Below, one piece after another: positions 1 to 50,685 of a DNA stretch of 64,000 bases. The stretch lies in assembly GCA_009914755.4 (NCBI GenBank), contig CP086569.2, positions 47,424,001-47,488,000 of the forward strand, read 5' to 3'. Within the stretch, counting starts at the first letter, position 1. Each line of letters starts with the position of its first letter. Under the pieces are notes generated by a model. It made no database searches, had not been told where the DNA came from, and saw nothing but the letters and a program-made list of their open reading frames with translations. This DNA comes from the human T2T-CHM13v2.0 reference genome, Homo sapiens. The translations under genes were made by a program, and so were the position numbers.

Positions 1-1
1 T

Positions 2-23300: not shown

Positions 23301-23945
23301 GGAATGGAATGGGCTGGAATGGAAAGGAATCGAAACGAATGGAATGGAATCGAACTGAAGAGACTGGAATGGAATGCACTGGAATGGAAGGGAGTGTAAT
23401 GGAAGGTTCTCGAAAAAAATGGAATCGAATGGAATGGAATTGAATGGAACGGAATAGAGTCGAATGGAATTGAATGGAATGGAATGGACTAGAGTGAAAT
23501 GGAATCGAACCACAAGGAATGGACAGGAATAGAATGGTCTCGAATTGAATGGAATCGTATGGAATGGCATCAAACGGAATGGAATGGACAGCCACGGAAT
23601 GGAATGCACTCGAATGCAATGGAGTCGAAACTAATGGACTGGAATAGAATGGACTCGACTGGTACGGACTCCAATGGAATGGAATCGAATGGAAGGGAAT
23701 CGAACGGAAGGGAATCGAACGGAATGGACTCGAAGGGAAAAGACTGCAATGGAAAGGTCTCGAATGGAATGGAAATTAATGGAATGGAATGGCATCGAAT
23801 GAAATGGAGTCAAAAGGAATGGAATCGAATGGCAAGAAATGGAATGTAATGGAATCGCCAGGAATTGATGTGAACGGAGCGGAATGGAATGGAATCCAAA
23901 GGAATGGAATAGAATGGAATGGAATCGAATGGAAAGGACTCGAAT
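20368..23945 (+). repeat. HOR unit U7 (3578 bp). 5' part like U5/U6, 3' part of a different subtype
   Basis: Anchor spacing. The region ~22250-22620 has GACTCAGATAG...GAGTGCAGTGCAATGG, a longer (GGAAT)n tract and an extra AATGGAATTGAATGG, as in U1-type units rather than U5/U6. Confidence 0.8.
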
Positions 23946-26900: not shown

Positions 26901-27458
26901 AAGGGAGTGTAATGGAAGGTTCTCGAAAAAAATGGAATCGAATGGAATGCAATTGAATGGAACGGAGTAGAGCCGAATGCAATTGAATGGAATGGAATGG
27001 ACTAGAGTGAAATGGAATCGAACCACAAGGAATGGACAGGAATAGAATGGTCTCGAATTGAATGGAATCGTATGGAATGGCATCAAACGGAATGGAATGG
27101 ACAGCCACGGAATGGAATGCACTCGAATGCAATGGAGTCGAATCTAATGGACTGGAATAGAATGGACTCGACTGGTACGGACTCCAATGGAATGGAATCG
27201 AATGGAAGGGAATCGAACGGAAGGGAATCGAATGGAATGGACTCGAAGGGAAAAGACTGTAATGGAAAGGTCTCGAATGGAATGGAAATTAATGGAATGG
27301 AATGGAATCGAATGAAATGGAGGCAAAAGGAATGGAATCGAATGGCAAGAAATCGAATGTAATGGAATCGCAAGGAATTGATGTGAACGGAACGGAATGG
27401 AATGGAATCCAAAGGAATGGAATAGAATGGAATGGAATCGAATGGAAAGGACTCGAAT
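23946..27458 (+). repeat. HOR unit U8 (3513 bp), same subtype as U4
   Basis: Anchor spacing. Shares the 15-bp AATAATATGAAATGG deletion (~24105-24125) and the GTCTAGTAGGCAATGC variant with U4. The ORF-track peptides of U4 and U8 are nearly identical. Confidence 0.85.
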
Positions 27459-30400
27459 GGAAATCACTCGAATAGAATGCAATTTAATAAAATAGGATCA
27501 AATGTAATGGAATGGAATGGAAAGGAATCGAAACGAAAGGAATGGAGACAGATGGAATGGAATGGAACAGAGAGCAATGGTATAGAACGGAATGGAATCA
27601 TCTGGAATGGAATTGAATGGAATGGAATAATATGAAATGGAAAGGAATGAAATGGAATGCCCTTGAATTAAATGGACTACAATGGGAATGGACTCGAACA
27701 GAGTGGAATGGAAAGTGTTGAAATAGAATGGAATTGACTCGTTTGGAATGGTCTAGTATGCAATGCAATCGACTGGCAGGGAATCAAAAGGAATGTAATC
27801 GAGTGGATTGGACTGGAATGCAATGGACTCGAATAGATTGGAAACGGAATGCAAAGGAATGGAATGGAATAGTATGGAATGGAATGGAAAGGAATGGAGT
27901 GGAATAGACTAGAGTGGAATGGAATGGACTCGAAAGCAATGGACTGGAATGGAACTTTCTTGAATGGACTGGAACCAAACGGAATGGAATGCAATGCAAT
28001 CAAATGGCATGGAATAAGATAGAATGAAAGAGAATCAAATGGAATTGAATCGAATGGAATCGAATGGATTGGAAAGGAATAGAATGGAATGGAATGGAAT
28101 TGACTCAAATGGAATGGACTAGAATGGAATGGATTCGAATGGAAGGCAAAGGAATGGAATCTATCGGAATGCACTGTAATGGAATGGAATGGAAGGGATT
28201 GGAATGGATTCGAATGGAATGGACTGCAATAGAAAGGATTCGAATGGAATGAAAAAGAATTGAATGGAATAGAACAGAATGGAATCAAATCGAATGAAAT
28301 GGAATGGAATAGAAAGGAATGGAATGAAATGGAATGGAAAGGATTCGAATGGAATGCAATCGAATGGAATGGAATCGAACGGAATGGAATAAAATGGAAG
28401 AAAACTGGCAAGAAATGGAATCGAAATGAATGGAATGTTTTGGAACGGACTCAAAAGGAATTGAATGTAATAGAATGGAGTGGAGTGGACTCGAATATAA
28501 TGGACTGGAATGGAATGAAATCACATGGAATGGGAACGAATGGAATGGAATGGAAAGGAATGGAATCGAATGGAAAGCAATCGAATGGAAGGGAATGAAA
28601 TTGAATCAACAGGAATGGAAGGGAATAGAATAGACGGTAATGGAATGGACTCGAATAGAATGGACACGAATGCTCAAATTGAATGGACTCGAATGGAATG
28701 GAAACGAAAGGAATGTCATCGAATGGAATTGAATCGATTGGAATGAAATCGCATAGAATGGAGTGGAATCAAATGGAATTGAATCGAAAGAAAAGGAAGC
28801 GAATGGACTGAAATGAAATGGAATGGAATTGAATGGAAAGTAACGCAATGGAATACAATGGAACGAAATTTCACGGAATGGAATCAAACTGAATGGAATC
28901 AAATCAATGGAATCTAATCAAATGGAATGGAAAGGAATTGAATGGAGTAGATTGGATTGGATGGGATTGGAATGAAATGTACTGGAAAGGACTCGAATTT
29001 CATGAAACGGAATGGAATGAATTGGAACGGAATGGACTCGAATGGAATGGAATGTCATGGAATGGTATCAAATGGAATGCCATCAAATGGAATGGAATCG
29101 AATGCAATGGAATGTTATGGAATGGAATGGAATGCATTGGAATGGAGTGTCCTCTAATGGAATGGATTCGAGTGGAATGGAATCGAATATAATGGAGTCG
29201 AATGAAATGGAATTGAAAGGAATGGGATCGAATAGAATGGAATATACTGGAATGTAATGTAATGAACTCGAATGTAATTGACTGGAATGGAATGTACATG
29301 AATGGAATGTAATCGAATGGAAAGTAATCCAATGGAATAGAATCTAATGCAATAAAACCGACTCAGATAGAGTAGAATGTAATGGAATGGAGTGCAGTGC
29401 AATGAAATGGAATGGAATTGAATGCAATGGAATGGAATGGAATGGAATGGAATGGAATGGAATGGAATGGAATTGGATGGAATGGTATGGAATGGATAGT
29501 AATGGACTGGAGTGAAATGGACTGGAAAGGAATGGACTCAAATTGAAAGGTCTCGAAAGGAATGGAGTCAAATGGAATGGTCTGGAATGGAATGAACACG
29601 AATGTAATGCAATCCAATAGAATGGAATCGAATGGCATGGAATATAAAGAAATGGAATCGAAGAGAATGGAAACAAATGGAATGGAATTGAATGGAATGG
29701 AATTGAATGGAATGGGAACGAATGGAGTGAAATTGTATGCAGTAGAAGGGAATAGAATGGAATGCAAGCGAAAGGAAAGGAATGGATTGGAATGGAATGG
29801 AATTCATTGGAATGGAAGGGAATGTAGTGTAATGGACAGGCCTGGAATAAAGTGGAATGCTACGGTCTCGAATGGAATAAAAATGTATGGAATGGAATGC
29901 AATGAAACGGAATCGAATGTCATAGAATGTAATGGAATGCAAAAAAATGGAATCCAAAATCATTGACTGGAAAGGCTGGGTGTCGAAAGGAATTGACTCC
30001 AATGGAATGGAATCGAATGGAATGGAAGTGAATAGAATCGAACTAAATCGAATGGAATGGAATTGATAGGAACGGAATGGAAAGGAATGCAATGATTTGG
30101 CATGGAATGGAATCGAATGGCATCGAATGGAATGGAATGGAATGCAATGGAATGGAATGTATTAGAATGGAATGAACTTTAATGGAATGTACTCGAATGG
30201 ATTCGACTGGAATGGAATGTTCTGGAAGTGAATGGACTCCAATGGAATGGATTCAAAAGGAATGGAATCGTACGGAATGGAATCTAATGGAATGGAATTA
30301 AATGGAAATGAATCAAATTGAATAGCACGGAATTGAATTGAATGGAATGGAATGCAATGGAATCTAATGAAACGGAAAGGAAAGGAATGGAATGGAATGG

Positions 30401-31043
30401 AATGGAATGGGCTGGAATGGAAAGGAATCGAAACGAATGGAATGGAATCGAACTGAAGAGACTGGAATGGAATGCACTGGAATGGAAGGGAGTGTAATGG
30501 AAGGTTCTCGAAAAAAATGGAATCGAATGGAATGGAATTGAATGGAACGGAATAGAGTCGAATGGAATTGAATGGAATGGAATGGACTAGAGTGAAATGG
30601 AATCGAACCACAAGGAATGGACAGGAATAGAATGGTCTCGAATTGAATGGAATCGTATGGAATGGCATCAAACGGAATGGAATGGACAGCCACGGAATGG
30701 AATGCACTCGAATGCAATGGAGTCGAAACTAACGGACTGGAATAGAATGGACTCGATTGGTACGGACTCCAATGGAATGGAATCGAATGGAAGGGAATCG
30801 AACGGAAGGGAATCGAACGGAATGGACTCGAAGGGAAAAGACTGCAATGGAAAGGTCTCGAATGGAATGGAAATTAATGGAATGGAATGGAATCGAATGA
30901 AATGGAGTCAAAAGGAATGGAATCGAATGGCAAGAAATCGAATGTAATGGAATCGCAAGGAATTGATGTGAACGGAACGGAATGGAATGGAATCCAAAGG
31001 AATGGAATAGAATGGAATGGAATCGAATGGAAAGGACTCGAAT
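27459..31043 (+). repeat. HOR unit U9 (3585 bp), same subtype as U11
   Basis: Anchor spacing. Private variants GGACTACAATGGGAATGG, GTTGAAATAG, GAATTGACTCGTTTGG, GGAACCAAACGG, AATAAGATAG and AATCTAATCAAATGG are all shared with U11. Confidence 0.85.
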
Positions 31044-33714
31044 GGAAATCACTCGAATAGAATGCAATTTAATAAAATAGGATCAAATGTAATAGAATGG
31101 AATGGAAAGGAATCGAAACGGAAGGAATGGAGACAGATGGAATGGAATGGAACAGAGAGCAATGGTATAGAATGGAATGGAATCATCTGGAATGGAATTG
31201 AATGGAATGGAATAATATGAAATGGAATGGAATGGAATGGAATGGAATGCCCTTGAATTAAATGGACTGGACTCGAACAGAGTGGAATGGAAAGTGTTGA
31301 GATAGATTGGAATGGACTCCTTTGGAATGGTCTAGTATGCAATGCAATCGACTGGCAGGGAATCAAAAGGAATGTAATCGAATGGATTGGACTGGAATGC
31401 AATGGACTCGAATAGATTGGAAACGGAATGCAAAGGAATGGAATGGAATAGTATGGAATGCAATGGAAGGGAATGGAGTGGAATAGACTAGAGTGGAATG
31501 GAATGGACTGGAAAGCAATGGACTGGAATGGAACTTTCTTGGATGGATGGGAATCAAACGGAATGGAATGCAATGCAATCAAATGGCATGGAATAAAATA
31601 GAATGAAAGAGAATCAAATGGAATTGAATCGAATGGAATCGAATGGATTGGAAAGGAATAGAATGGAATGGAATGGAATTGACTCAAATGGAATGGACTA
31701 GAATGGAATGGATTCGAATGGAATGGAATGTCATGGAATGGCATCAAATGGAATGGCATCAAATGGAATGGAATCGAATGCAATGGAATGCTATGGAATG
31801 GAATGGAATGCATTGGAATGGAATGTCCTCTAATGGAATGGATTCGAGTGGAATGGAATTGAATATAATGGAGTCGAATGAAATGGAATTGAAAGGAATG
31901 GGATCGAATACAATGTAATATACTGGAATGTAACGTAATGAACTCGAATGTAATTGACTGGAATGGAATGTACATGAATGGAATGTAATCGAATGGAAAG
32001 TAATCCAATGGAATAGAATCTAATGCAATAAAATCGACTCAGATAGAGTAGAATGTAATGGAATGGAGTGCAGTGCAATGGAATGGAATGGAATGGAATG
32101 CAATGGAATGGAATGGAATGGAATGGAATGGAATGGAATGGAATGGAATGGGATGGAATGGTATGGAATGGATAGTAATGGACTGGAGTGAAATGGACTG
32201 GAAAGGAATGGACTCAAATTGAAAGGGCTCGAAAGGAATGGAGTCAAATGGAATGGTCTGGAATGGAATGAACACGAATGTAATGCAATCCAATAGAATG
32301 GAATCGAATGGCATGGAATATAAAGAAATGGAATCGAAGAGAATGGAAACAAATGGAATGGAATTGAATGGAATGGAATTGAATGGAATGTGAACGAATG
32401 GAGTGAAATTGTATGCAGTAGAAGAGAATAGAATGGAATGCAAGCGAAAGGAAAGGAATGGATTGGAATGGAATGGAATTCATTGGAATGGAAGGGAATG
32501 TAGTGTAATGGACAGGCCTGGAATAAAGTGGAATGCTACGGTCTCGAATGGAATAAAAATGTATGGAATGGAATGCAATGAAACGGAATCGAATGTCATA
32601 GAATGTAATGGAATGCAAAAAAATGGAATCCAAAATCATTGACTGGAAAGGCTGGGTGTCGAAAGGAATTGACTCCAATGGAATGGAATCGAATGGAATG
32701 GAAGTGAATAGAATCGAACTAAATCGTATGGAATGGAATTGATAGGAACGGAATGGAAAGGAATGCAATGATTTGGCATGGAATGGAATCGAATGGCATC
32801 GAATGGAATGGAATGGAATGCAATGGAATGGAATGTATTAGAATGGAATGAACTTTAATGGAATGTACTCGAATGGATTCGACTGGAATGGAATGTTCTG
32901 GAAGTGAATGGACTCCAATGGAATGGATTCAAAAGGAATGGAATCGTACGGAATGGAATCTAATGGAATGGAATTAAATGGAAATGAATCAAATTGAATA
33001 GCACGGAATTGAATTGAATGGAATGGAATGCAATGGAATCTAATGAAACGGAAAGGAAAGGAATGGAATGGAATGGAATGGGCTGGAATGGAAAGGAATC
33101 GAAACGAATGGAATGGAATCGAACTGAAGAGACTGGAATGGAATGCACTGGAATGGAAGGGAGTGTAATGGAAGGTTCTCGAAAAAAATGGAATCGAATG
33201 GAATGCAATTGAATGGAACGGAGTAGAGCCGAATGCAATTGAATGGAATGGAATGGACTAGAGTGAAATGGAATCGAACCACAAGGAATGGACAGGAATA
33301 GAATGGTCTCGAATTGAATGGAATCGTATGGAATGGCATCAAACGGAATGGAATGGACAGCCACGGAATGGAATGCACTCGAATGCAATGGAGTCGAATC
33401 TAATGGACAGGAATAGAATGGACGCGACTGGTACGGACTCCAATGGAATGGAATCGAATGGAAGGGAATCGAACGGAAGGGAATCGAATGGAATGGACTC
33501 GAAGGGAAAAGACTGTAATGGAAAGGTCTCGAATGGAATGGAAATTAATGGAATGGAATGGAATCGAATGAAATGGAGGCAAAAGGAATGGAATCGAATG
33601 GCAAGAAATCGAATGTAATGGAATCGCAAGGAATTGATGTGAACGGAACGGAATGGAATGGAATCCAAAGGAATGGAATAGAATGGAATGGAATCGAATG
33701 GAAAGGACTCGAAT
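31044..33714 (+). repeat. HOR unit U10 (2671 bp). Deletion variant A, same junction as U1
   Basis: Anchor spacing. GGATTCGAATGGAATGGAATGTCATGGAATGGCATC at ~31711-31745 reproduces the U1 junction. The 319-aa artefactual minus-strand ORFs 7..966 and 31049..32008 are almost identical. Confidence 0.85.
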
Positions 33715-36700
33715 GGAAATCACTCGAATAGAATGCAATTTAATAAAATAGGATCAAATGTAATGGAATGGAATGGAAAGGAATCGAAACGAAAGGAATG
33801 GAGACAGATGGAATGGAATGGAACAGAGAGCAATGGTATAGAACGGAATGGAATCATCTGGAATGGAATTGAATGGAATGGAATAATATGAAATGGAAAG
33901 GAATGAAATGGAATGCCCTTGAATTAAATGGACTACAATGGGAATGGACTCGAACAGAGTGGAATGGAAAGTGTTGAAATAGAATGGAATTGACTCGTTT
34001 GGAATGGTCTAGTATGTAATGCAATCGACTGGCAGGGAATCAAAAGGAATGTAATCGAGTGGATTGGACTGGAATGCAATGGACTCGAATAGATTGGAAA
34101 CGGAATGCAAAGGAATGGAATGGAATAGTATGGAATGGAATGGAAAGGAATGGAGTGGAATAGACTAGAGTGGAATGGAATGGACTCGAAAGCAATGGAC
34201 TGGAATGGAACTTTCTTGAATGGACTGGAACCAAACGGAATGGAATGCAATGCAATCAAATGGCATGGAATAAGATAGAATGAAAGAGAATCAAATGGAA
34301 TTGAATCGAATGGAATCGAATGGATTGGAAAGGAATAGAATGGAATGGAATGGAATTGACTCAAATGGAATGGACTAGAATGGAATGGATTCGAATGGAA
34401 GGCAAAGGAATGGAATCTATCGGAATGCACTGTAATGGAATGGAATGGAAGGGATTGGAATGGATTCGAATGGAATGGACTGCAATAGAAAGGATTCGAA
34501 TGGAATGAAAAAGAATTGAATGGAATAGAACAGAATGGAATCAAATCGAATGAAATGGAATGGAATAGAAAGGAATGGAATGAAATGGAATGGAAAGGAT
34601 TCGAATGGAATGCAATCGAATGGAATGGAATCGAACGGAATGGAATAAAATGGAAGAAAACTGGCAAGAAATGGAATCGAAATGAATGGAGTGTTTTGGA
34701 ACGGACTCAAAAGGAATTGAATGTAATAGAATGGAGTGGAGTGGACTCGAATATAATGGACTGGAATGGAATGAAATCACATGGAATGGGAACGAATGGA
34801 ATGGAATGGAAAGGAATGGAATCGAATGGAAAGCAATCGAATGGAAGGGAATGAAATTGAATCAACAGGAATGGAAGGGAATAGAATAGACTGTAATGGA
34901 ATGGACTCGAATAGAATGGACACGAATGCTCAAATTGAATGGACTCGAATGGAATGGAAACGAAAGGAATGTCATCGAATGGAATTGAATCGATTGGAAT
35001 GAAATCGCATAGAATGGAGTGGAATCAAATGGAATTGAATCGAAAGGAAAGGAAGCGAATGGACTGAAATGAAATGGAATGGAATTGAATGGAAAGTAAT
35101 GCAATGGAATAGAATGGAACGAAATTTCACGGAATGGAATCAAACTGAATGGAATCAAATCAATGGAATCTAATCAAATGGAATGGAAAGGAATTGAATG
35201 GAGTAGATTGGATTGGATGGGATTGGAATGAAATGTACTGGAAAGGACTCGAATTTCATGAAACGGAATGGAATGAATTGGAACGGAATGGACTCGAATG
35301 GAATGGAATGTCATGGAATGGTATCAAATGGAATGCCATCAAATGGAATGGAATCGAATGCAATGGAATGTTATGGAATGGAATGGAATGCATTGGAATG
35401 GAATGTCCTCTAATGGAATGGATTCGAGTGGAATGGAATCGAATATAATGGAGTCGAATGAAATGGAATTGAAAGGAATGGGATCGAATAGAATGGAATA
35501 TACTGGAATGTAATGTAATGAACTCGAATGTAATTGACTGGAATGGAATGTACATGAATGGAATGTAATCGAATGGAAAGTAATCCAATGGAATAGAATC
35601 TAATGCAATAAAACCGACTCAGATAGAGTAGAATGTAATGGAATGGAGTGCAGTGCAATGAAATGGAATGGAATTGAATGCAATGGAATGGAATGGAATG
35701 GAATGGAATGGAATGGAATGGAATTGGATGGAATGGTATGGAATGGATAGTAATGGACTGGAGTGAAATGGACTGGAAAGGAATGGACTCAAATTGAAAG
35801 GTCTCGAAAGGAATGGAGTCAAATGGAATGGTCTGGAATGGAATGAACACGAATGTAATGCAATCCAATAGAATGGAATCGAATGGCATGGAATATAAAG
35901 AAATGGAATCGAAGAGAATGGAAACAAATGGAATGGAATTGAATGGAATGGAATTGAATGGAATGGGAACGAATGGAGTGAAATTGTATGCAGTAGAAGG
36001 GAATAGAATGGAATGCAAGCGAAAGGAAAGGAATGGATTGGAATGGAATGGAATTCATTGGAATGGAAGGGAATGTAGTGTAATGGACAGGCCTGGAATA
36101 AAGTGGAATGCTACGGTCTCGAATGGAATAAAAATGTATGGAATGGAATGCAATGAAACGGAATCGAATGTCATAGAATGTAATGGAATGCAACAAAATG
36201 GAATCCAAAATCATTGACTGGAAAGGCTGGGTGTCGAAAGGAATTGACTCCAATGGAATGGAATCGAATGGAATGGAAGTGAATAGAATCGAACTAAATC
36301 GAATGGAATGGAATTGATAGGAACGGAATGGAAAGGAATGCAATGATTTGGCATGGAATGGAATCGAATGGCATCGAATGGAATGGAATGGAATGCAATG
36401 GAATGGAATGTATTAGAATGTAATGAACTTTAATGGAATGTACTCGAATGGATTCGACTGGAATGGAATGTTCTGGAAGTGAATGGACTCCAATGGAATG
36501 GATTCAAAAGGAATGGAATCGTACGGAATGGAATCTAATGGAATGGAATTAAATGGAAATGAATCAAATTGAATAGCACGGAATTGAATTGAATGGAATG
36601 GAATGCAATGGAATCTAATGAAACGGAAAGGAAAGGAATGGAATGGAATGGAATGGACTGGAATGGAAAGGAATCGAAACGAATGGAATGGAATCGAACT

Positions 36701-37274
36701 GAAGAGACAGGAATGGAATGCACTGGAATGGAAGGGAGTGTAATGGAAGGTTCTCGAAAAAAATGGAATCGAATGGAATGGAATTGAATGGAACGGAATA
36801 GAGTCGAATGGAATTGAATGGAATGGAATGGACTAGAGTGAAATGGAATCGAACCACAAGGAATGGACAGGAATAGAATGGTCTCGAATTGAATGGAATC
36901 GTATGGAATGGCATCAAACGGAATGGAATGGACAGCCACGGAATGGAATGCACTCGAATGCAATGGAGTCGAAACTAATGGACTGGAATAGAATGGACTC
37001 GACTGGTACGGACTCCAATGGAATGGAATCGAATGGAAGGGAATCGAAAGGAATGGACTCGAAGGGAAAAGACTGCAATGGAAAGGTCTCGAATGGAATG
37101 GAAATTAATGGAATGGAATGGAATCGAATGAAATGGAGTCAAAAGGAATGGAATCGAATGGCAAGAAATCGAATGTAATGGAATCGCAAGGAATTGATGT
37201 GAACGGAACGGAATGGAATGGAATCCAAAGGAATGGAATAGAATGGAATGGAATCGAATGGAAAGGACTCGAAT
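33715..37274 (+). repeat. HOR unit U11 (3560 bp), copy of the U9 subtype
   Basis: Anchor spacing. See the shared variants listed for U9. Confidence 0.85.
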
Positions 37275-39958
37275 GGAAATCACTCGAATAGAATGCAATT
37301 TAATAAAATAGGATCAAATGTAATGGAATGGAATGGAAAGGAATCGAAACGAAAGGAATGGAGACAGATGGAATGGAATGGAACAGAGAGCAATGGTATA
37401 GAATGGAATGGAATCATCTGGAATGGAATTGAATGGAATGGAATAATATGAAATGGAATGGAATGGAATGGAATGGAATGCCCTTGAATTAAATGGACTG
37501 GAATGGAATGGACTCGAACAGAGTGGAATGGAAAGTGTTGAGATAGAATGGAATGGACTCCTTTGGAATGGTGTACTATGCAATGCAATCGACTGGCAGG
37601 GAATCAAAAGGAATGTAATCGAATGGATTGGACTGGAATGCAATGGACTCGAATAGATTGCAAACGGAATGCAAAGGAATGGAATGGAATAGTATGGAAT
37701 GGAATGGAAAGGAATGGAGTGGAATAGACTAGAGTGGAATGGAATGGACTGGAAAGCAATGGACTGGAATGGAACTTTCTTGAATGGACTGGAATCAAAC
37801 GGAATGGAATGCAATGCAATCAAAAGGCATGGAATAAAATAGAATGAAAGAGAATCAAATGGAATTGAATCGAATGGAATCGAATGGATTGGAAAGGAAT
37901 AGAATGGAATGGAATGGAATGGACTAGAATGGAATGGATTCGAATGGAAGGCAAAGGAATGGAATCTATTGGAATGGACTGTAATGGAATGGAATGGAAG
38001 GGATTGGAATGGACTCGAATGGAATTGACTGCAATAGATAGGATTCGAATGGAATGAAAAAGAATTGAATGGAATAGAACAGAATGGAATCAAATCGAAT
38101 GAAATGGAATGGAATAGAAAGGAATGGAATGAAATGGAATGGAAAGGATTCGAATGGAATGCAATCGAATGGAATGGAATCGAACGGAATGGAATAAAAT
38201 GGAAGAAAACTGGCAAGAAAGGGAATCGATATGAATGGAGTGTTATGGAACGGACTCAAAAGGAATTGAATGTAATAGAATGGAGTGGAGTGGACTCGAA
38301 TATAATGGACTGGAATGGAATGAAATCACATGGAATGGGAACGAATGGAATGGAATGGAAAGGAATGGAATCGAATGGAAAGGAATCGAATGGAAGGGAA
38401 TGAAATTGAATCAACAGGAATGGAAGGGAATAGAATAGACGGTAATGGAATGGACTCGAATAGAATGGACACGAATGCTCAAATTGAATGGACTCGAATG
38501 GAATGGAAACGAAAGGAATGTCATCGAATGGAATTGAATCGATTGGAATGAAATCGCATAGAATGGAGTGGAATCAAATGGAATTGAATCGAAAGGAAAG
38601 GAAACGAATGGACTGAAATGAAATGGAATGGAATTGAATGGAAAGTAATGCAATGGAATAGAATGGAACGAAATTTCACGGAATGGAATCAAACTGAATG
38701 GAATCAAATCAATGGAATCCAATCAAATGGAATGGAGTAGATTGGATTGGATGGGATTGGAATGAAATGTACTGGAAAGGACTCGAATTTCATGAAACGG
38801 AATGGAATGAATTGGAACGGAATGGACTCGAATGGAATGGAATGTCATAGAATGGCATCAAATGGAATGGCATCAAATGGAATGGAATCGAATGCAATGG
38901 AATGCTATGGAATGGAATGGAATGCATTGGAATGGAATGTCCTCTAATGGAATGGATTCGAGTGGAATGGAATCGAATATAATGGAGTCGAATGAAATGG
39001 AATTGAAAGGAATGGGATCGAATACAATGGAATATACTGGAATGTAATGTAATGAACTGGAATGTAATTGACTGGAATGGAATGTACATGAATGGAATGT
39101 AATCGAATGGAAAGTAATCCAATGGAATAGAATCTAATGCAATAAAATCGACTCAGATAGAGTAGAATGTAATGGAATGGAGTGCAGTGCAATGGAATGG
39201 AATGGAATGGAATGCAATGGAATGGAATGGAATGGAATGGAATGGAATGGAATGGAATGGAATGGAATGGGATGGAATGGTATGGAATGGATAGTAATGG
39301 ACTGGAGTGAAATGGACTGGAAAGGAATGGACTCAAATTGAAAGGGCTCGAAAGGAATGGAGTCAAATGGAATGGTCTGGAATGGAATGAACACGAATGT
39401 AATGCAATCCAATAGAATGGAATCGAATGGCATGGAATATAAAGAAATGGAATCGGAGAGAATGGAAACAAATGGAATGGAAATGAATGGAATGGAATTG
39501 AATGGAATGGGAACGAATGGAGTGAAATTGTATGCAGTAGAAGGGAATAGAATGGAATGCAAGCGAAAGGAAAGGAATGGATTGGAATGGAATGGAATTC
39601 ATTGGAATGGAAGGGAATGTAGTGTAATGGACAGGCCTGGAATAAAGTGGAATGCTACGGTCTCGAATGGAATAAAAATGTATGGAATGGAATGCAATGA
39701 AATGGAATCGAATGTCATAGAATATAATGGAATGCAAAAAAATGGAATCCAATATCATTGACTGGAAAGGCTGGGTGTCGAAAGGAATTGACTCCAATGG
39801 AATGGAATCGAATGGAATGGAGTCAAAAGGAATGGAATCGAATGGCAAGAAATCGAATTTAATGGAATCGCAAGGAATTGATGTGAACGGAACGGAATGG
39901 AATGGAATCCAAAGGAATGGAATAGAATGGAATGGAATCGAATGGAAAGGACTCGAAT
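37275..39958 (+). repeat. HOR unit U12 (2684 bp). Deletion variant B: about 0.885 kb missing from the 3' part of the unit, otherwise U2 subtype
   Basis: Anchor spacing. After GACTCCAATGGAATGGAATCGAATGGAATGG (~39791-39820) the sequence continues AGTCAAAAGGAATGGAATCGAATGGCAAGAAATCG, which in canonical units is about 885 bp downstream (compare 15812 to ~16697 in U5). Confidence 0.85.
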
Positions 39959-42900
39959 GGAAATCACTCGAATAGAATGCAATTTAATAAAATAGGATCA
40001 AATGTAATATAATGGAATGGAAAGGAATCGAAACGGAAGGAATGGAGACAGGTGGAATGGAATGGAACAGAGAGCAATGGTATAGAATGGAATGGAATCA
40101 TCTGGAATGGAATTGAATGGAATGGAATAATATGAAATGGAATGGAATGGAATGGAATGGAATGCCCTTGAATTAAATGGACTGGACTCGAACAGAGTGG
40201 AATGGAAAGTGTTGAGATAGAATGGAATGGACTCCTTTGGAATGGTGTAGTATGCAATGCAATCGACTGGCAGGGAATCAAAAGGAATGTAATCGAATGG
40301 ATTGGACTGGAATGCAATGGACTCGAATAGATTGGAAACGGAATGCAAAGGAATGGAATGGAATAGTATGGAATGCAATGGAAGGGAATGGAGTGGAATA
40401 GACTAGAGTGGAATGGAATGGACTGGAAAGCAATGGACTGGAATGGAACTTTCTTGGATGGATTGGAATCAAACGGAATGGAATGCAATGCAATCAAATG
40501 GCATGGAATAAAATAGAATGAAAGAGAATCAAATGGAATTGAATTGAATGGAATCGAATGGATTGGAAAGGAATAGAATGGAATGGAATGGAATTGACTC
40601 AAATGGAATGGACTAGAATGGAATGGATTCGAATGGAAGGCAAAGGAATGGAATCTATTGGAATGGACTGTAATGGAATGGAATGGAAGGGATTGGAATG
40701 GACTCGAATGGAATGGACTGCAATAGAAAGGATTCGAATGGAATGAAAAAGAATTGAATGGAATAGAACAGAATGGAATCAAATCGAATGAAATGGAATG
40801 GAATAGAAAGGAATGGAATGAAATGGAATGGAAAGGATTCGAATGGAATGCAATCGAATGGAATGGAATCGAACGGAATGGAATAAAATGGAAGAAAACT
40901 GGCAAGAAATGGAATCGAAATGAATGGAGTGTTATGGAACGGACTCAAAAGGAATTGAATGTAATAGAATGGAGTGGAGTGGACTCGAATATAATGGACT
41001 GGAATGGAATGAAATCACATGGAATGGGAACGAATGGAATGGAATGGAAAGGAATGGAATCGAATGGAAAGGAATCGAATGGAAGGGAATGAAATTGAAT
41101 CAACACGAATGGAAGGGAATAGAATAGACTGTAATGGAATGGACTCGAATAGAATGGACACGAATGCTCAAATTAAATGGACTCGAATGGAATGGAAACG
41201 AAAGGAATGTCATCGAATGGAATTGAATCGATTGGAATGAAATCGCATAGAATGGAGTGGAATCAAATGGAATTGAATCGAAAGGAAAGGAAGCGAATGG
41301 ACTGAAATGAAATGGAACGGAATTGAATGGAAAGTAATGCAATGGAATAGAATGGAACGAAATTTCACGGAATGGAATCAAACTGAATGGAATCAAATCA
41401 ATGGAATCAAATCAAATGGAATGGAAAGGAATTGAATGGAGTAGATGGGATTGGATGGGATTGGAATGAAATGTACTGGAAAGGACTCGAATTTCATGAA
41501 ACGGAATGGAATGAATTGGAACGGAATGGACTCGAATGGAATGGAATGTCATGGGATGGCATCAAATGGAATGGCATCAAATGGAATGGAATCGAATGCA
41601 ATGGAATGCTATGGAATGGAATGGAATGCATTGGAATGGAATGTCCTCTAATGGAATGGATTCGAGTGGAATGGAATGGAATATAATGGAGTCGAATGAA
41701 ATGGAATTGAAAGGAATGGGATCGAATACAATGGAATATACTGGAATGTAACGTAATGAACGCGAATGTAATTGACTGGAATGGAATGTACATGAATGGA
41801 ATGTAATCGAATGGAAAGTAATCCAATGGAATAGAATCTAATGCAATAAAATCGACTCAGATAGAGTAGAATGTAATGGAATGGAGTGCAGTGCAATGGA
41901 ATGGAATGGAATGGAATGCAATGGAATGGAATGGAATGGAATGGAATGGAATGGAATGGAATGGAATGGAATGGGATGGAATGGTATGGAATGGATAGTA
42001 ATGGACTGGAGTGAAATGGACTGGAAAGGAATGGACTCAAATTGAAAGGGCTCGAAAGGAATGGAGTCAAATGGAATGGTCTGGAATGGAATGAACACGA
42101 ATGTAATGCAACCCAATAGAATGGAATCGAATGGCATGGAATATAAAGAAATGGAATCGAAGAGAATGGAAACAAATGGAATGGAATTGAATGGAATGGA
42201 ATTGAATGGAATGGGAACGAATGGAGTGAAATTGTATGCAGTAGAAGAGAATAGAATGGAATGCAAGCGAAAGGAAAGGAATGGATTGGAATGGAATGGA
42301 ATTCATTGGAATGGAAGGGAATGTAGTGTAATGGACAGGCCTGGAATAAAGTGGAATGCTACGGTCTCGAATGGAATAAAAATGTATGGAATGGAATGCA
42401 ATGAAACGGAATCGAATGTCATAGAATGTAATGGAATGCAAAAAAAAGGAATCCAAAATCATTGACTGGAAAGGCTGGGTGTCGAAAGGAATTGACTCCA
42501 ATGGAATGGAATCGAATGGAATGGAAGTGAATAGAATCGAACTAAATCGAATGGAATGGAATTGATAGGAACGGAATGGAAAGGAATGCAATGATTTGGC
42601 ATGGAATGGAATCGAATGGCATCGAATGGAATGGAATGGATTGCAATGGAATGGAATGTATTAGAATGTAATGAACTTTAATGGAATGTACTCGAATGGA
42701 TTCGACTGGAATGGAATGTTCTGGAAGTGAATGGACTCCAATGGAATGGATTCAAAAGGAATGGAATCGTACGGAATGGAATCTAATGGAATGGAATTAA
42801 ATGGAAATGAATCAAATTGAATAGCACGGAATTGAATTGAATGGAATGGAATGCAATGGAATCTAATGAAACGGAAAGGAAAGGAATGGAATGGAATGGA

Positions 42901-43537
42901 ATGGGCTGGAATGGAAAGGAATCGAAACGAATGGAATGGAATCGAACTGAAGAGACTGGAATGGAATGCACTGGAATGGAAGGGAGTGTAATGGAAGGTT
43001 CTCGAAAAAAATGGAATCGAATGGAATGGAATTGAATGGAACGGAATAGAGTCGAATGGAATTGAATGGAATGGAATGGACTAGAGTGAAATGGAATCGA
43101 ACCACAAGGAATGGACAGGAATAGAATGGTCTCGAATTGAATGGAATCGTATGGAATGGCATCAAACGGAATGGAATGGACAGCCACGGAATGGAATGCA
43201 CTCGAATGCAATGGAGTCGAAACTAATGGACTGGAATAGAATGGACTCGACTGGTACGGACTCCAATGGAATGGAATCGAATGGAAGGGAATCGAACGGA
43301 AGGGATTCGAACGGAATGGACTCGAAGGGAAAAGACTGCAATGGAAAGGTCTCGAATGGAATGGTAATTAATGGAATGGAATGGAATCGAATGAAATGGA
43401 GTCAAAAGGAATGGAATCGAATGGCAAGAAATCGAATGTAATGGAATCGCAAGGAATTGATGTGAACGGAACGGAATGGAATGGAATCCAAAGGAATGGA
43501 ATAGAATGGAATGGAATCGAATGGAAATGACTCCAAT
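39959..43537 (+). repeat. HOR unit U13 (3579 bp), U3 subtype
   Basis: Anchor spacing. Shares GAAACGGAAGGAATGG, GACTGGACTCGAACAGAGTGG and GCAATGGAAGGG with U3. The 313-aa and 126-aa artefactual ORFs match those of U3. Confidence 0.85.
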
Positions 43538-46500
43538 GGAAATCACTCGAATAGAATGCAATTTAATAAAGTAGGATCAAATGTAATGGAATGGAATGGA
43601 AAGGAATCGAAACGAAAGGAATGGAGACAGATGGAATGGAATGGAACAGAGAGCAATGGTATAGAATGGAATGGAATCATCTGGAATGGAATTGAATGGA
43701 ATGGAATAATATGAAATGGAATGGAATGGAATGGAATGGAATGCCCTTGAATTAAATGGACTGGACTCAAACAGAGTGGAATGGAAAGTGTGGAGATAGA
43801 ATGGAATGAACTCCTTTGGAATGGTGTAGTATGCAATGCAATCGACTGGCAGGGAATCAAAAGGAATGTAATCGAATGGATTGGACTGGAATGCAATGGA
43901 CTCGAATAGATTGGAAACGGAATGCAAAGGAATGGAATGGAATAGTATGGAATGCAATGGAAGGGAATGGAGTGGAATAGACTAGAGTGGAATGGAATGG
44001 ACTGGAAAGCAATGGACTGGAATGGAACTTTCTTGGATGGACTGGAATCAAACGGAATGGAATACAATGCAATCAAATGGCATGGAATAAAATAGAATGA
44101 AAGAGAATCAAATGGAATTGAATCGAATGGAATCGAATGGATTGGAAAGGAATAGAATGGAATGGAATGGAATTGACTCAAATGGAATGGACTAGAATGG
44201 AATGGATTCGAATGGAAGGCAAAGGAATGGAATCTATTGGAATGGACTGTAATGGAATGGAATGGAAGGGATTGGAATGGACTCGAATGGAATGGACTGC
44301 AATAGAAAGGATTCGAATGGAATGAAAAAGAATTGAATGGAATAGAACAGAATGGAATCAAATCGAATGAAATGGAATGGAATAGAAAGGAATGGAATGA
44401 AATGGAATGGAAAGGATTCGAATGGAATGCAATCGAATGGAATGGAATCGAACGGAATGGAATAAAATGGAAGAAAACTGGCAAGAAATGGAATCGAAAT
44501 GAATGGAGTGTTATGGAACGGACTCAAAAGGAATTGAATGTAATAGAATGGAGTGGAGTGGACTCGAATATAATGGACTGGAATGGAATGAAATCACATG
44601 GAATGGGAACGAATGGAATGGAATGGAAAGGAATGGAATCGAATGGAAAGGAATCGAATGGAAGGGAATGAAATTGAATCAACACGAATGGAAGGGAATA
44701 GAATACACTGTAATGGAATGGACTCGAATAGAATGGACACGAATGCTCAAATTAAATGGACTCGAATGGAATGGAAACGAAAGGAATGTCATCGAATGGA
44801 ATTGAATCGATTGGAATGAAATCGCATAGAATGGAGTGGAATCAAATGGAATTGAATCGAAAGGAAAGGAAGCGAATGGACTGAAATGAAATGGAATGGA
44901 ATTGAATGGAAAGTAATGCAATGGAATAGAATGGAACGAAATTTCACGGAATGGAATCAAACTGAATGGAATCAAATCAATGGAATCAAATCAAATGGAA
45001 TGGAAAGGAATTGAATGGAGTAGATGGGATTGGATGGGACTGGAATGAAATGTACTGGAAAGGACTCGAATTTCATGAAACGGAATGGAATGAATTGGAA
45101 CGGAATGGACTCGAATGGAATGGAATGTCATGGGATGGCATCAAATGGAATGACATCAAATGGAATGGAATCGAATGCAATGGAATGCTATGGAATGGAA
45201 TGGAATGCATTGGAATGGAATGTCCGCTAATGGAATGGATTCGAGTGGAATGGAATTGAATATAATGGAGTCGAATGAAATGGAATTGAAAGGAATGGGA
45301 TCGAATACAATGGAATATACTGGAATGTAACGTAATGAACTCGAATGTAATTGACTGGAATGGAATGTAAATGAATGGAATGTAATCGAATGGAAAGTAA
45401 TCCAATGGAATAGAATCTAATGCAATAAAATCGACTCAGATAGAGTAGAATGTAATGGAATGGAGTGCAGTGCAATGGAATGGAATGGAATGGAATGCAA
45501 TGGAATGGAATGGAATGGAAAGGAATGGAATGGAATGGAATGGAATGGGATGGAATGGTATGGAATGGATAGTAATGGACTGGAGTGAAATGGACTGGAA
45601 AGGAATGGACTCAAATTGAAAGGGCTCGAAAGGAATGGAGTCAAATTGAATGGTCTGGAATGGAATGAACACGAATGTAATGCAACCCAATAGAATGGAA
45701 TCGAATGGCATGGAATATAAAGAAATGGAATCGAAGAGAATGGAAACAAATGGAATGGAATTGAATGGAATGGAATTGAATGGAATGGGAACGAATGGAG
45801 TGAAATTGTATGCAGTAGAAGAGAATAGAATGGAATGCAAGCGAAAGGAAAGGAATGGATTGGAATGGAATGGAATTCATTGGAATGGAAGGGAATGTAG
45901 TGTAATGGACAGGCCTGGAATAAAGTGGAATGCTACGGTCTCGAATGGAATAAAAATGTATGGAATGGAATGCAATGAAACGGAATCGAATGTCATAGAA
46001 TGTAATGGAATGCAAAAAAATGGAATCCAAAATCATTGACTGGAAAGGCTGGGTGTCGAAAGGAATTGACTCCAATGGAATGGAATCGAATGGAATGGAA
46101 GTGAATAGAATCGAACTAAATCGAATGGAATGGAATTGATAGGAACGGAATGGAAAGGAATGCAATGATTTGGCATGGAATGGAATCGAATGGCATCGAA
46201 TGGAATGGAATGGAATGCAATGGAATGGAATGTATTAGAATGTAATGAACTTTAATGGAATGTACTCGAATGGATTCGACTGGAATGGAATGTTCTGGAA
46301 GTGAATGGACTCCAATGGAATGGATTCAAAAGGAATGGAATCGTACGGAATGGAATCTAATGGAATGGAATTAAATGGAAATGAATCAAATTGAATAGCA
46401 CGGAATTGAATTGAATGGAATGGAATGCAATGGAATCTAATGAAACGGAAAGGAAAGGAATGGAATGGAATGGAATGGACTGGAATGGAAAGGAATCGAA

Positions 46501-47111
46501 ACGAATGGAATGGAATCGAACTGAAGAGACTGGAATGGAATGCACTGGAATGGAAGGGAGTGTAATGGAAGGTTCTCGAAAAAAATGGAATCGAATGGAA
46601 TGGAATTGAATGGAACGGAATAGAGTCGAATGGAATTGAATGGAATGGAATGGACTAGAGTGAAATGGAATCGAACCACAAGGAATGGACAGGAATAGAA
46701 TGGTCTCGAATTGAATGGAATCGTATGGAATGGCATCAAACGGAATGGAATGGACAGCCACGGAATGGAATGCACTCGAATGCAATGGAGTCGAAACTAA
46801 TGGACTGGAATAGAATGGACTCGACTGGTACGGACTCCAATGGAATGGAATCGAATGGAAGGGAATCGAACGGAAGGGAATCGAACGGAATGGACTCGAA
46901 GGGAAAAGACTGCAATGGAAAGGTCTCGAATGGAATGGAAATTAATGGAATGGAATGGAATCGAATGAAATGGAGTCAAAAGGAATGGAATCGAATGGCA
47001 AGAAATCGAATGTAATGGAATAGCCAGGAATTGATGTGAACGGAACGGAATGGAATGGAATCCAAAGGAATGGAATAGAATGGAATGGAATCGAATGGAA
47101 AGGACTCGAAT
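43538..47111 (+). repeat. HOR unit U14 (3574 bp), U3/U13-like
   Basis: Anchor spacing. Anchor variant GAAATGACTCCAATGGAAATCACTCG and the same diagnostic variants as U13. Confidence 0.85.
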
Positions 47112-50100: not shown

Positions 50101-50685
50101 AGACTGGAATGGAATGCACTGGAATGGAAGGGAGTGTAATGGAAGGTTCTCGAAAAAAATGGAATCGAATGGAATGGAATTGAATGGAACGGAGTAGAGT
50201 CGAATGGAATTGAATGGAATGGAATGGACTAGAGTGAAATGGAATCCAACCACAAGGAATGGACAGGAATAGAATGGTCTCGAATTGAATGGAATCGTAT
50301 GGAATGGCATCAAACGGAATGGAATGGACAGCCACGGAATGGAATGCACTCGAATGCAATGGAGTCGAAACTAACGGACTGGAATAGAATGGACTCGACT
50401 GGTACGGACTCCAATGGAATGGAATCGAATGGAAGGGAATCGAACGGAAGGGAATCGAACGGAATGGACTCGAAGGGAAAAGACTGCAATGGAAAGGTCT
50501 CGAATGGAATGGAAATTAATGGAATGGAATGGAATCGAATGAAATGGAGTCAAAAGGAATGGAATCGAATGGTAAGAAATCGAATGTAATGGAATCGCAA
50601 GGAATTGATGTGAACGGAACGGAATGGAATGGAATCCAAAGGAATGGAATAGAATGGAATGGAATCGAATGGAAAGGACTCGAAT
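47112..50685 (+). repeat. HOR unit U15 (3574 bp), mosaic subtype
   Basis: Anchor spacing. Combines the GACTGGAATGGAATGGACTCAAACAGAGTGG variant (U4/U5 type) with GCAATGGAAGGG (U3 type). Confidence 0.8.

What the first reader, a model, noticed from the sequence alone, without database searches (positions are those of the whole stretch)
31044..43537. Long-range recurrence of unit subtypes: U1-U2-U3 resembles U10-(U11)-U12-U13, with U11 a copy of U9
Diagnostic variants tie U1 to U10 (deletion A), U2 to U12 and U3 to U13. U1, U2 and U3 are adjacent. U10, U12 and U13 are separated by U11, whose private variants (GGACTACAATGGGAATGG, GTTGAAATAG, GAATTGACTCGTTTGG, GGAACCAAACGG, AATAAGATAG) match U9, the unit immediately before U10. 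This suggests a multi-unit block duplicated about 31-34 kb away, then an unequal exchange that inserted an extra U9-type unit, then the deletion B event in U12. U4 resembles U8 (shared 15-bp deletion, identical 3513 bp length). Those two units are 14 kb apart.
Basis: seen in the sequence. Interest (0 to 1): 0.55.

Follow-up and report, generated by a model that had tools for sequence, protein, structure and literature searches.

The report
Local duplications inside Y-chromosome DYZ1 satellite
The window is an ordinary stretch of the human Y-chromosome DYZ1 satellite, and the look-alike repeat units in it are the expected traces of repeat units being copied, inserted and deleted by misaligned exchange within the array.

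Summary
The whole 64-kb window is a tandem array of the human Y-specific satellite DYZ1 (HSat3A6): 18 complete units and one truncated unit, of 3.5-3.6 kb.

**What held up**
- The five quoted U9/U11 strings each occur exactly twice, 6256 bp apart.
- U9/U11 cluster with 100% bootstrap and 26 shared private substitutions.
- U2/U12 cluster at 98%.
- U1 and U10 carry the same 902-bp deletion with an identical junction.

**What did not hold up well**
- U3/U13 is weak: 55% bootstrap and no exclusive shared variant.
- U4 resembles U8 only over its first ~1.5 kb. The 15-bp deletion cited for them is also in U5 and U6.

**Refinement**
The extra piece is not U11 itself. It is a segment about one unit long, out of phase with the unit frame: U10 tail plus U11 head (~32.5-36.3 kb). 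It copies U8 tail plus U9 head (~26.3-30.1 kb). U1 matches the chimera of U10 head and U11 tail far better than it matches any real unit (8 substitutions, against at least 17 for any complete unit).

A three-unit block duplication (U1-U2-U3 versus U10h/U11t-U12-U13) is plausible but only moderately supported (permutation p≈0.08, uneven divergence).

Duplication by unequal exchange is already described for Yq12, so the finding is real but ordinary.

The parts
1..64000 (+). Tandem array of DYZ1 (HSat3A6) units: 18 complete and one cut by the window end. The + strand is the GGAAT-rich strand.
   Evidence: TRF finds period 5/10/15 across the whole window. Unit spacing is 3513-3585 bp. All eight published DYZ1 primers hit once per unit, and there is one HaeIII site per unit. 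GC is 38-40% and CpG density is 1 per 35 bp, matching the published values.
1..2651 (+). U1, a 2651-bp unit carrying deletion A (902 bp lost, junction 671|672).
   Evidence: Pairwise alignment to U3 shows one 902-bp gap. The junction is identical to that of U10. The nearest relative is the chimera of U10 head and U11 tail.
2652..6189 (+). U2, a gamma-type unit and partner of U12.
   Evidence: 18 mismatches in 2679 bp to U12. NJ bootstrap is 98%.
6190..9767 (+). U3, an alpha-type full-length unit and weak partner of U13.
   Evidence: 7.0 substitutions per kb to U13, 55% bootstrap, no exclusive shared variant. A 744-bp exact match links 6778 and 40546.
26110..30170 (+). U8 tail plus U9 head, one of the two copies of the boundary-crossing segment. 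These are outer limits; the inner limits are 26387-29967.
   Evidence: Three-way site patterns and head/tail nearest neighbours. A 592-bp exact match runs across the unit boundary, 27169-27760 = 33425-34016.
31043..32643 (+). U10 head, U1-like, with deletion A (junction 31713|31714). The switch to U8-like sequence falls between 32366 and 32643.
   Evidence: 24 of 25 discriminating sites are U1-like before the switch and 13 of 14 are U8-like after it. Fisher p=2e-8.
32366..36421 (+). U10 tail plus U11 head, the second copy of the segment, about one unit long. These are outer limits; the inner limits are 32643-36218. It lies 6256 bp from its partner.
Evidence: 12 substitutions and 1 indel in 3575 bp against U8 tail plus U9 head.
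36421..37273 (+). U11 tail. It is not U9-like. Its closest relative is the U1 tail, by a small margin.
   Evidence: 3 differences to the U1 tail, against 5 to U14 and U17 and 7 to U9. It shares the 15-bp deletion at columns 3351-3365 with U1, U2 and U18.
37274..39957 (+). U12, a gamma-type unit and partner of U2, with private deletion B (875 bp, junction 39815|39816).
   Evidence: Pairwise alignments. The deletion lies between 25/26-matching direct repeats AATGGAATGGAATCGAATG(G/A)AATGGA.
39958..43536 (+). U13, an alpha-type unit and weak partner of U3.
9664..11236 (+). U3 tail plus U4 head, a block repeated at 23841-25413 (U7 tail plus U8 head), offset 14177 bp.
   Evidence: Shared variants at columns 3501, 3519 and 3539, then columns 157-1505. 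Exact matches of 599 and 519 bp at offset 14177.
11237..21998 (+). Three nearly identical out-of-phase unit copies: U4 tail/U5 head, U5 tail/U6 head and U6 tail/U7 head. This is the youngest amplification in the window.
   Evidence: U5 and U6 differ by 2 substitutions. Exact repeats of 2569, 1803, 1508 and 1468 bp lie at offsets 3543 and 7086.

Best explanation
The window is non-coding satellite DNA: a piece of a DYZ1 (HSat3A6) array of the kind that fills human Yq12. It has no gene-like function that would need explaining. The recurrence of unit subtypes is a record of how the array changes.

[quoted passage not shown] Change therefore comes from misaligned exchange or repair between sister chromatids, or within one chromatid. 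Such events copy, insert and delete stretches whose ends fall anywhere within a unit.

**Shown here**
1. A segment about 3.6 kb long (U8 tail plus U9 head) is present a second time 6256 bp downstream (U10 tail plus U11 head). There it splits a deletion-A unit whose uninterrupted form is seen in U1.
2. Deletion A (902 bp) arose once and is now in two units 31 kb apart.
3. Deletion B (875 bp) arose in U12 between 26-bp direct repeats.
4. Younger one-unit amplifications gave U4-U7 and U17-U18.

**Inferred**
- The U1-U2-U3 stretch and the U10h/U11t-U12-U13 stretch descend from one duplication of about 10 kb.
- The extra segment was added afterwards. Either of two routes would do it: a two-unit unequal crossover followed by a one-unit deletion, or a single out-of-register repair event that copied one unit length.
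- The direction could also be the reverse. A crossover between U10 and U11 would produce a U1-like unit.
For: **Identity**
- All eight DYZ1 primers from PMC3925983 Table 5 hit once per unit. There is a single HaeIII site per unit, giving fragments of 3513-3580 bp.
- The base composition is pentameric.
- GC is 38% and CpG density is 1 per 35 bp, as reported for DYZ1.
- Human-derived contigs from elsewhere are 97-99.5% identical to the window consensus.

**Copy of the segment**
- Site patterns switch parent once in U10 (Fisher p=2e-8) and once in U11 (p=1e-4).
- The U10 tail has 4 differences to U8, against at least 14 to other units. The U11 head has 9 differences to U9, against at least 36 to others.
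- An exact 592-bp match crosses the unit boundary.

**U1 resembles U10 head plus U11 tail**
- 8 substitutions and 1 indel, against 19 substitutions to U10 and 36 to U11.

**Block**
- It is the best three-unit diagonal in the window.
- U2/U12 has 98% bootstrap.

**Local origin of the variants**
- Neither the deletion junctions nor any of the five quoted U9/U11 strings occur in 129 kb of external DYZ1, and almost none of the scorable subtype variants do.

**Mechanism in the literature**
[quoted passage not shown] Sister-chromatid exchanges in Yq12 were seen in about 15% of Strand-seq libraries (10.1101/2022.12.01.518724).
- Six of 35 de novo Yq12 events in a pedigree were consistent with gene conversion (10.64898/2026.06.03.729890).
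Against: **The block duplication is not statistically secure.**
- Permutation p is 0.08.
- U1 against the chimera differs at 3.0 per kb, while U2/U12 and U3/U13 differ at 7.0-7.5 per kb (p≈0.03). One event alone does not explain all three pairs.
- U3/U13 has no exclusive variant.

**Other weak points**
- The tie between the U11 tail and the U1 tail rests on a margin of one or two differences.
- The right-hand end of the copied segment is poorly bounded, because unit tails vary little.
- The order and direction of events cannot be fixed from one window.
- The chromosomal location and the correctness of the assembly could not be checked.
- The external DYZ1 sample is small, and short-read contigs tend towards the consensus, so absence of rare variants there is weak evidence.
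Confidence: 0.7

Rival explanations
1. There was no multi-unit block duplication. The pairs U1/U10, U2/U12 and U3/U13 arose through separate short gene-conversion or single-unit duplication events, and their collinear order is coincidence.
For: - The pairs differ in divergence: 3.0 against 7.0-7.5 substitutions per kb, p≈0.03.
- The permutation test on the three-unit diagonal gives p=0.08.
- U3/U13 has 55% bootstrap and no exclusive variant.
- Gene conversion is documented in Yq12.
- Every other relation in the window is a patch of 1.5-3.6 kb.
Against: - Both deletion-A units are followed by the two mutually closest gamma units, once the inserted segment is set aside. Those are in turn followed by full-length alpha units.
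- Only three gamma units exist among 18, so this order is unlikely by chance (my rough estimate is about 0.02 for the first step).
- The U1 tail and the U11 tail are mutual nearest neighbours, which makes the U1/U2 junction continuous with the U11/U12 junction.
Confidence: 0.22
2. The array has, or once had, a regular super-repeat of about nine units (~31 kb). U1, U10 and U19 would mark the same position in three successive periods.
For: - U1, U10 and U19 form a clade (77% bootstrap).
- They are spaced 31042 and 30305 bp apart, nine units each time.
- In the array with the extra segment removed, offset 9 has the lowest mean distance among offsets 1-16.
Against: - No other position corresponds. 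U9 and U18 differ at 69 places. U4/U14 differ at 45 places.
- U19 lacks deletion A.
- Only three of nine positions match in the first two 'periods', and nothing can be tested in the third.
Confidence: 0.05
3. The shared variants mark old DYZ1 subfamilies that are interspersed throughout Yq12, or they arose by recurrent mutation at hot spots. On this view recurrence at a distance says nothing about local events.
For: - Indels in multiples of 5 bp recur at two hot spots, columns 157-191 and 1978-2012.
- About 12% of variant alleles lie at CpG positions, which make up 6% of sites.
Against: - In 129 kb of external DYZ1, 14 of the 16 scorable U9/U11 variants were absent and the other two were rare (1 and 3 occurrences, against about 25 for the major allele). 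The deletion junctions were absent and almost all other subtype variants were too.
- 26 linked substitutions and an identical 902-bp deletion junction cannot be recurrent mutation.
Confidence: 0.03
4. The pattern is an assembly artefact: reads from similar units were joined wrongly, which created chimeric units such as U10 and U11.
For: Yq12 is among the hardest regions of the genome to assemble. Chimeric units are what a mis-join between similar units would look like.
Against: - Each copy has accumulated its own private substitutions (12 between the two segment copies; U10 has 6 and U11 has 4). This is as expected for real paralogues.
- The mosaic boundaries are typical of unequal exchange and occur throughout the window.
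- This could not be tested directly.
Confidence: 0.04

Closest known systems
DYZ1 / HSat3A6, the ~3.56-kb pentamer-derived satellite of human Yq12
   Same: - Unit length 3513-3585 bp, including one unit of the modal 3569 bp.
- One HaeIII site per unit.
- GGAAT/ATTCC composition, 38% GC, 1 CpG per 35 bp.
- All eight published DYZ1 primers match once per unit.
   Different: Nothing found. Three of the 19 units are about 2.65-2.68 kb because of two deletions of about 0.9 kb. Chromosomal position and flanking DYZ2 could not be checked.
Iterative tandem duplications in Yq12 attributed to unequal exchange (T2T-Y paper, 10.1101/2022.12.01.518724)
   Same: Same array family and same inferred mechanism: duplicated stretches spanning several repeat units, later modified by smaller deletions and expansions.
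   Different: The published events are up to 5 Mb and span whole DYZ1/DYZ2 blocks. Here the scale is 3.6-10 kb within one DYZ1 array.
The 2.7-kb repeat of the DYZ18 subregion (Hallast et al., 10.1101/2022.12.01.518658)
   Same: Similar length to U1, U10 and U12 (2651-2684 bp), and largely derived from DYZ1.
   Different: That repeat is 23% DYZ18-derived and forms its own array. The short units here align to DYZ1 along their full length, differ from full units only by one clean deletion, and sit singly inside a DYZ1 array.
Local expansions and layered haplotypes in alpha-satellite higher-order repeat arrays
   Same: Neighbouring or nearby units share private variants, because expansion and contraction act locally. 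Hallast et al. say DYZ1 arrays evolve 'similarly to the centromeric region'.
   Different: A different satellite family. No regular multi-unit period is seen here.
Out-of-register repair (synthesis-dependent strand annealing) that changes tandem-repeat copy number. This is from my own knowledge of yeast studies and was not checked in the library.
   Same: It would add a whole number of units with both junctions at homologous positions, as seen for the U10 tail/U11 head segment.
   Different: Not distinguishable here from two successive unequal crossovers.

Membership tests
DYZ1 / HSat3A6 | Tandem unit of about 3.56 kb, released as a single HaeIII fragment. | tested here: met
   There are 19 GGCC sites, one per unit. 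Sixteen of the 18 intervals are 3513-3580 bp. The other two, 2676 and 2704 bp, carry deletions A and B. The literature gives a 3564-bp unit and a modal fragment of 3569 bp.
DYZ1 / HSat3A6 | Built from diverged copies of the pentamer GGAAT/ATTCC. | tested here: met
   TRF finds period 5/10/15 over positions 44-63998. Self-identity peaks at multiples of 5.
DYZ1 / HSat3A6 | Sequence match to published DYZ1-specific oligonucleotides. | tested here: met
   - Primers A-H of PMC3925983 Table 5 were each found with at most 1 mismatch and in the expected orientation. A and H were found in every unit and B-G in 10 to 16 units.
- Two sexing primers recalled from memory also hit once per unit, 154 bp apart. 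Their source could not be found in the library.
DYZ1 / HSat3A6 | Base composition and CpG density as reported for DYZ1 (38% GC, 1 CpG per 35 bp). | tested here: met
   GC is 0.38-0.40. The 3579-bp consensus has 103 CpG.
DYZ1 / HSat3A6 | Located in Yq12 and alternating with DYZ2 arrays. | not testable with these tools
   The window holds DYZ1 only, with no flank and no human genome to map against.
Regular higher-order (multi-unit) repeat | Units at the same position of successive periods are more alike than neighbours, at all positions of the period. | tested here: not met
   Only U1/U10(/U19), U2/U12 and, weakly, U3/U13 correspond. U4/U14 differ at 45 places and U9/U18 at 69.
Multi-unit segmental duplication within a tandem array | Collinear pairs of closest relatives, with continuity across unit junctions. 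| tested here: inconclusive
   It is the best three-unit diagonal in the window, but permutation p=0.08. Junction continuity rests on the weak tie between the U1 and U11 tails.
Multi-unit segmental duplication within a tandem array | Equal divergence along the duplicated block. | tested here: not met
   3.0 per kb for U1 against the chimera, versus 7.0-7.5 per kb for U2/U12 and U3/U13; p≈0.03. A later conversion could account for this.
Single-segment copy by unequal exchange or conversion (U8t+U9h to U10t+U11h) | One contiguous tract of high identity, with one parent switch at each end at homologous unit positions. | tested here: met
   The switches fall in columns 2252-2529 (U10) and 2529-2732 (U11). 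The tract has 12 substitutions and 1 indel in 3575 bp. Fisher p=2e-8 and 1e-4.

The most novel reading that the evidence does not exclude
This DYZ1 array might carry a cryptic super-repeat of about 31 kb (nine units) that has not been described for DYZ1. U1, U10 and U19 would mark successive periods, and the U1-U2-U3 and U10-U12-U13 blocks would be its best-preserved parts. Later local turnover would have overwritten the rest.
Probability: 0.06. Interest if true: 0.3.

Novelty: already known. Interest (0 to 1): 0.15.

Why it matters
It matters little beyond description. The window gives a base-level example of how a Y-chromosome satellite array is reshaped.
- Copied stretches start and end inside units, so comparisons framed on whole units mislead. 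U10 and U11 are both chimeras.
- Deletions of about 0.9 kb arise between short direct repeats and are then propagated.

If the same junctions were scored across the many complete Y assemblies now available, they could serve as rare structural markers. Such markers could date and order Yq12 rearrangements along the Y phylogeny.

One practical by-product is that several 'bacterial' genome assemblies contain human DYZ1 contigs.

Tried and rejected
1. **First MAFFT alignment.** It put deletion B of U12 in the wrong place and produced 53 false private substitutions. I fixed this by adding U12 as two fragments.
2. **Internal sub-repeat of ~890 bp.** I considered this as a cause of both ~0.9-kb deletions. 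Self-comparison of the consensus shows no such period, only a decay from 15 bp. The deletions lie between short direct repeats instead.
3. **Simple two-unit (6256-bp) tandem duplication.** Rejected. It would require the U12 head to resemble the U10 head, but they differ at about 30 places plus deletion A.
4. **Nine-unit super-repeat.** Not supported.
5. **Deletion-A junction in metagenome and prokaryote-genome collections.** No hit.
6. **Generic DYZ1 probe in the same collections.** It returned 39 human-derived loci, and none carries the window's quoted U9/U11 strings or deletion junctions.
7. **Literature search for the classical sexing-primer sequence.** No paper found. Identity rests on the primers of PMC3925983 instead.
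8. **Rfam scan and ORF list.** No RNA family was found. The only ORFs are stop-free pentamer runs.
9. **The 2.7-kb repeat of the DYZ18 region.** Considered for the short units and rejected.

Full report
**What the window is**

Tandem Repeats Finder reports one array of period 5/10/15 (AATGG-type) over positions 44-63998. GC is 0.38-0.40 with a strong G-over-C skew throughout. K-mer spacing shows a longer unit of about 3.5 kb.

| Unit | Start | Length (bp) |
|---|---|---|
| U1 | 1 | 2651 |
| U2 | 2652 | 3538 |
| U3 | 6190 | 3578 |
| U4 | 9768 | 3513 |
| U5 | 13281 | 3543 |
| U6 | 16824 | 3543 |
| U7 | 20367 | 3578 |
| U8 | 23945 | 3513 |
| U9 | 27458 | 3585 |
| U10 | 31043 | 2671 |
| U11 | 33714 | 3560 |
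| U12 | 37274 | 2684 |
| U13 | 39958 | 3579 |
| U14 | 43537 | 3574 |
| U15 | 47111 | 3574 |
| U16 | 50685 | 3531 |
| U17 | 54216 | 3569 |
| U18 | 57785 | 3563 |
| U19 | 61348 | cut at 64000 |

Several independent features identify the array as DYZ1:
- All eight DYZ1 primers listed in Table 5 of PMC3925983 are found with at most one mismatch and in the expected orientation. A and H are found in every unit and B-G in 10 to 16 units.
- There is exactly one HaeIII site per unit, giving fragments of 3513-3580 bp plus two short ones of 2676 and 2704 bp.
- The consensus is 3579 bp long with 103 CpG, which is 1 per 35 bp.
- Hallast et al. (10.1101/2022.12.01.518658) describe DYZ1 as a unit of about 3.5 kb with a modal HaeIII fragment of 3569 bp, 38% GC and 1 CpG per 35 bp. 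They also call it HSat3A6.

The window is therefore human Y-type DYZ1 satellite, read on its GGAAT strand. Its position in Yq12 cannot be checked from the window. No Rfam family matches. The long ORFs on the minus strand are stop-free pentamer runs.

**Checking the observation**

The five strings quoted for U9/U11 each occur exactly twice, always 6256 bp apart.

A MAFFT alignment of the 19 units needed one repair. Deletion B of U12 had been misplaced, which gave 53 false private substitutions. After U12 was re-added as two fragments, neighbour-joining with 300 bootstraps gave the following:

| Cluster | Bootstrap |
|---|---|
| U9/U11 | 100% |
| U5/U6 | 100% |
| U2/U12/U16 | 100% |
| U2/U12 | 98% |
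| U17/U18 | 82% |
| U1/U10/U19 | 77% |
| U3/U13 | 55% |
| U4/U8 | 40% |

Pair by pair:
- **U9/U11.** They share 26 private substitutions, all within alignment columns 130-2036.
- **U1/U10.** They carry the same 902-bp deletion with an identical junction (after 671 and after 31713). The junction lies in a short homology, TCGAAT(G/A)GAA.
- **U2/U12.** They differ at 18 of 2679 aligned bases.
- **U3/U13.** They have no exclusive shared variant. They are no closer to each other (7.0 per kb) than U3 is to U1 (6.4 per kb) or to U14 (7.6 per kb).
- **U4/U8.** Both are 3513 bp long. U4 follows U8 only in columns ~157-1505 and then follows U5/U6.

**The units are mosaics**

A table of informative sites and a nearest-neighbour scan in 400-column windows show that relationships change within units and continue across unit boundaries. 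Three-way comparisons locate the switches.

- **U10.** It agrees with U1 at 24 of 25 discriminating sites up to column 2252, and with U8 at 13 of 14 sites from column 2529 on (Fisher p=2e-8).
- **U11.** It agrees with U9 at 34 of 36 sites up to column 2529. After that it does not: 5 of 6 sites agree with U1 (p=1e-4).

Head and tail distances agree with this:
- U10 tail to U8: 4 differences, next best 14.
- U11 head to U9: 9 differences, next best 36.
- U1 head to U10: 6 differences, next best 14.
- U1 tail to U11: 3 differences, next best 4. This last tie is weak.

Two conclusions follow.
- A contiguous segment about one unit long occurs twice, 6256 bp apart. The copies are window ~26110/26387 to ~29967/30170 and ~32366/32643 to ~36218/36421. 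They differ by 12 substitutions and 1 indel in 3575 bp.
- An alignment-free check finds an exact 592-bp match running across the unit boundary, 27169-27760 = 33425-34016, and a 673-bp match inside U9/U11.

In the classical HaeIII frame this segment is almost exactly one fragment: 26259-29838 against 32515-36089.

**U1 is the uninterrupted form**

A chimera made of U10 head and U11 tail differs from U1 by 8 substitutions and 1 indel in 2651 bp. U1 differs from U10 by 19, from U11 by 36, and from any other complete unit by at least 17. So the copied segment sits inside a deletion-A unit whose intact version is U1.

A single two-unit tandem duplication does not fit. It would require the U12 head to resemble the U10 head, and they differ at about 30 places plus deletion A.

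Three routes fit:
- A two-unit unequal crossover followed by a one-unit deletion.
- One out-of-register repair event that copies one unit length.
- The reverse direction, in which a crossover between U10 and U11 produces a U1-like unit.

The window does not discriminate between these.

**The three-unit block**

With the extra segment removed, U1-U2-U3 against chimera-U12-U13 is the best non-overlapping three-unit diagonal (5.8 substitutions per kb, next best 8.4). Random unit orders reach this value in 8% of 5000 permutations.

Divergence is uneven: 3.0 per kb for U1 against the chimera, versus 7.5 and 7.0 per kb for U2/U12 and U3/U13 (p≈0.03). The correspondence stops at U4/U14, which differ at 45 places.

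I rate a single ~10-kb duplication with later conversion as the more likely reading. Independent events are a serious rival.

**Other events in the window**

- **Deletion B.** It is 875 bp, private to U12, with its junction at 39815|39816. It lies between direct repeats AATGGAATGGAATCGAATG(G/A)AATGGA that match at 25 of 26 positions.
- **U3 tail plus U4 head** (9664-11236) recurs as U7 tail plus U8 head (23841-25413), at an offset of 14177 bp.
- **U4 tail through U7 head** is three nearly identical out-of-phase copies. U5 and U6 differ at 2 sites, and exact repeats reach 2569 bp.
- **U16 tail/U17 head and U17 tail/U18 head** share an exact 1651-bp repeat.

**Are the variants local?**

The deletion-A junction has no exact match in the metagenome or prokaryote-genome collections. 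A generic DYZ1 probe retrieved 39 human-derived loci totalling 129 kb. Many are 97-99.5% identical to the window consensus.

None of them carries the deletion junctions or the five quoted U9/U11 strings. At sites that vary within the window, they almost always carry the window's majority allele. Fourteen of the 16 scorable U9/U11 variants are absent there, and the other two are rare. This argues against widespread subfamilies and for local descent.

The sample is small, however, and short-read contigs lean towards the consensus.

**Mechanism and comparison with what is known**

[quoted passage not shown] It also reports sister-chromatid exchanges in Yq12 in about 15% of Strand-seq libraries.
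- A 2026 preprint reports that 6 of 35 de novo Yq12 events in a pedigree fit gene conversion.
- Hallast et al. note that DYZ1 arrays evolve like centromeric arrays, by local expansion and contraction.

The pattern here is the same process seen at the scale of single units. The short units are not the 2.7-kb repeat of the DYZ18 region. That repeat contains DYZ18-derived sequence, and these units do not.

**Verdict**

It is weak for U3/U13 and only partial for U4/U8.

The main correction is that the extra DNA is an out-of-phase segment that makes both U10 and U11 chimeras. The phenomenon and its mechanism are already known for this satellite, so interest is low.

Noticed in passing
L034-L039 (BMRF01000076.1 Actinomadura cremea JCM 3308; CALPCJ010000043.1 Senimuribacter sp. 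DSM 106208; NZ_JBFAJD010000109.1 Streptomyces sp. NPDC050549; BNBB01000077.1 Streptosporangium violaceochromogenes JCM 3281; BMTN01000077.1 Streptomyces kurssanovii JCM 4388; CAYVXY010000078.1 Polyangiaceae MAG): Contigs in assemblies labelled as bacterial are 98.2-99.3% identical to the DYZ1 consensus over their whole length. This is contamination with human male DNA. Several are about 3.6 kb, one collapsed repeat unit.
   Followed up: partly
window 1, 31043 and 61348 (starts of U1, U10, U19): The three units of the U1/U10/U19 clade are spaced 31042 and 30305 bp apart, nine units each time. U19 has the same head type but lacks deletion A, so it may represent the pre-deletion form. No other position of a nine-unit period corresponds.
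   Followed up: partly
alignment columns 157-191 and 1978-2012 of every unit (for example window ~9925 and ~11740 in U4): There are two indel hot spots where units differ by 5, 10, 15, 20, 30, 35 or 45 bp, always multiples of the pentamer. These length changes recur and are poor markers of relationship.
   Followed up: no
window 53990-55640 and 57559-59209: An exact 1651-bp repeat crosses the U16/U17 and U17/U18 boundaries. It is another out-of-phase one-unit duplication.
   Followed up: no
window 50685-54215 (U16), with U2 and U18, alignment columns 2740-2970: U2, U16 and partly U18 share a cluster of tail variants in the region that deletion B removed from U12. The U2/U12/U16 type therefore probably extends into the tail, and U18 is a mosaic that carries it.
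   Followed up: no
window, minus strand (for example 7-966, 31049-32008): There are 22 ORFs of 200-319 aa, all starting with TTG. They recur at the same place in successive units. They come from stop-free frames of the pentamer repeat and are not evidence of genes.
   Followed up: partly
L004/L005 (BNJT01001888.1, 55.5 kb), L013/L027 (BNJU01004413.1, 54.6 kb), L021 (BNJU01001848.1, 52.3 kb): Metagenome records contain contigs longer than 50 kb that carry DYZ1 arrays from human DNA. Only parts were fetched. They could serve as independent arrays for comparing local duplication structure.
   Followed up: no
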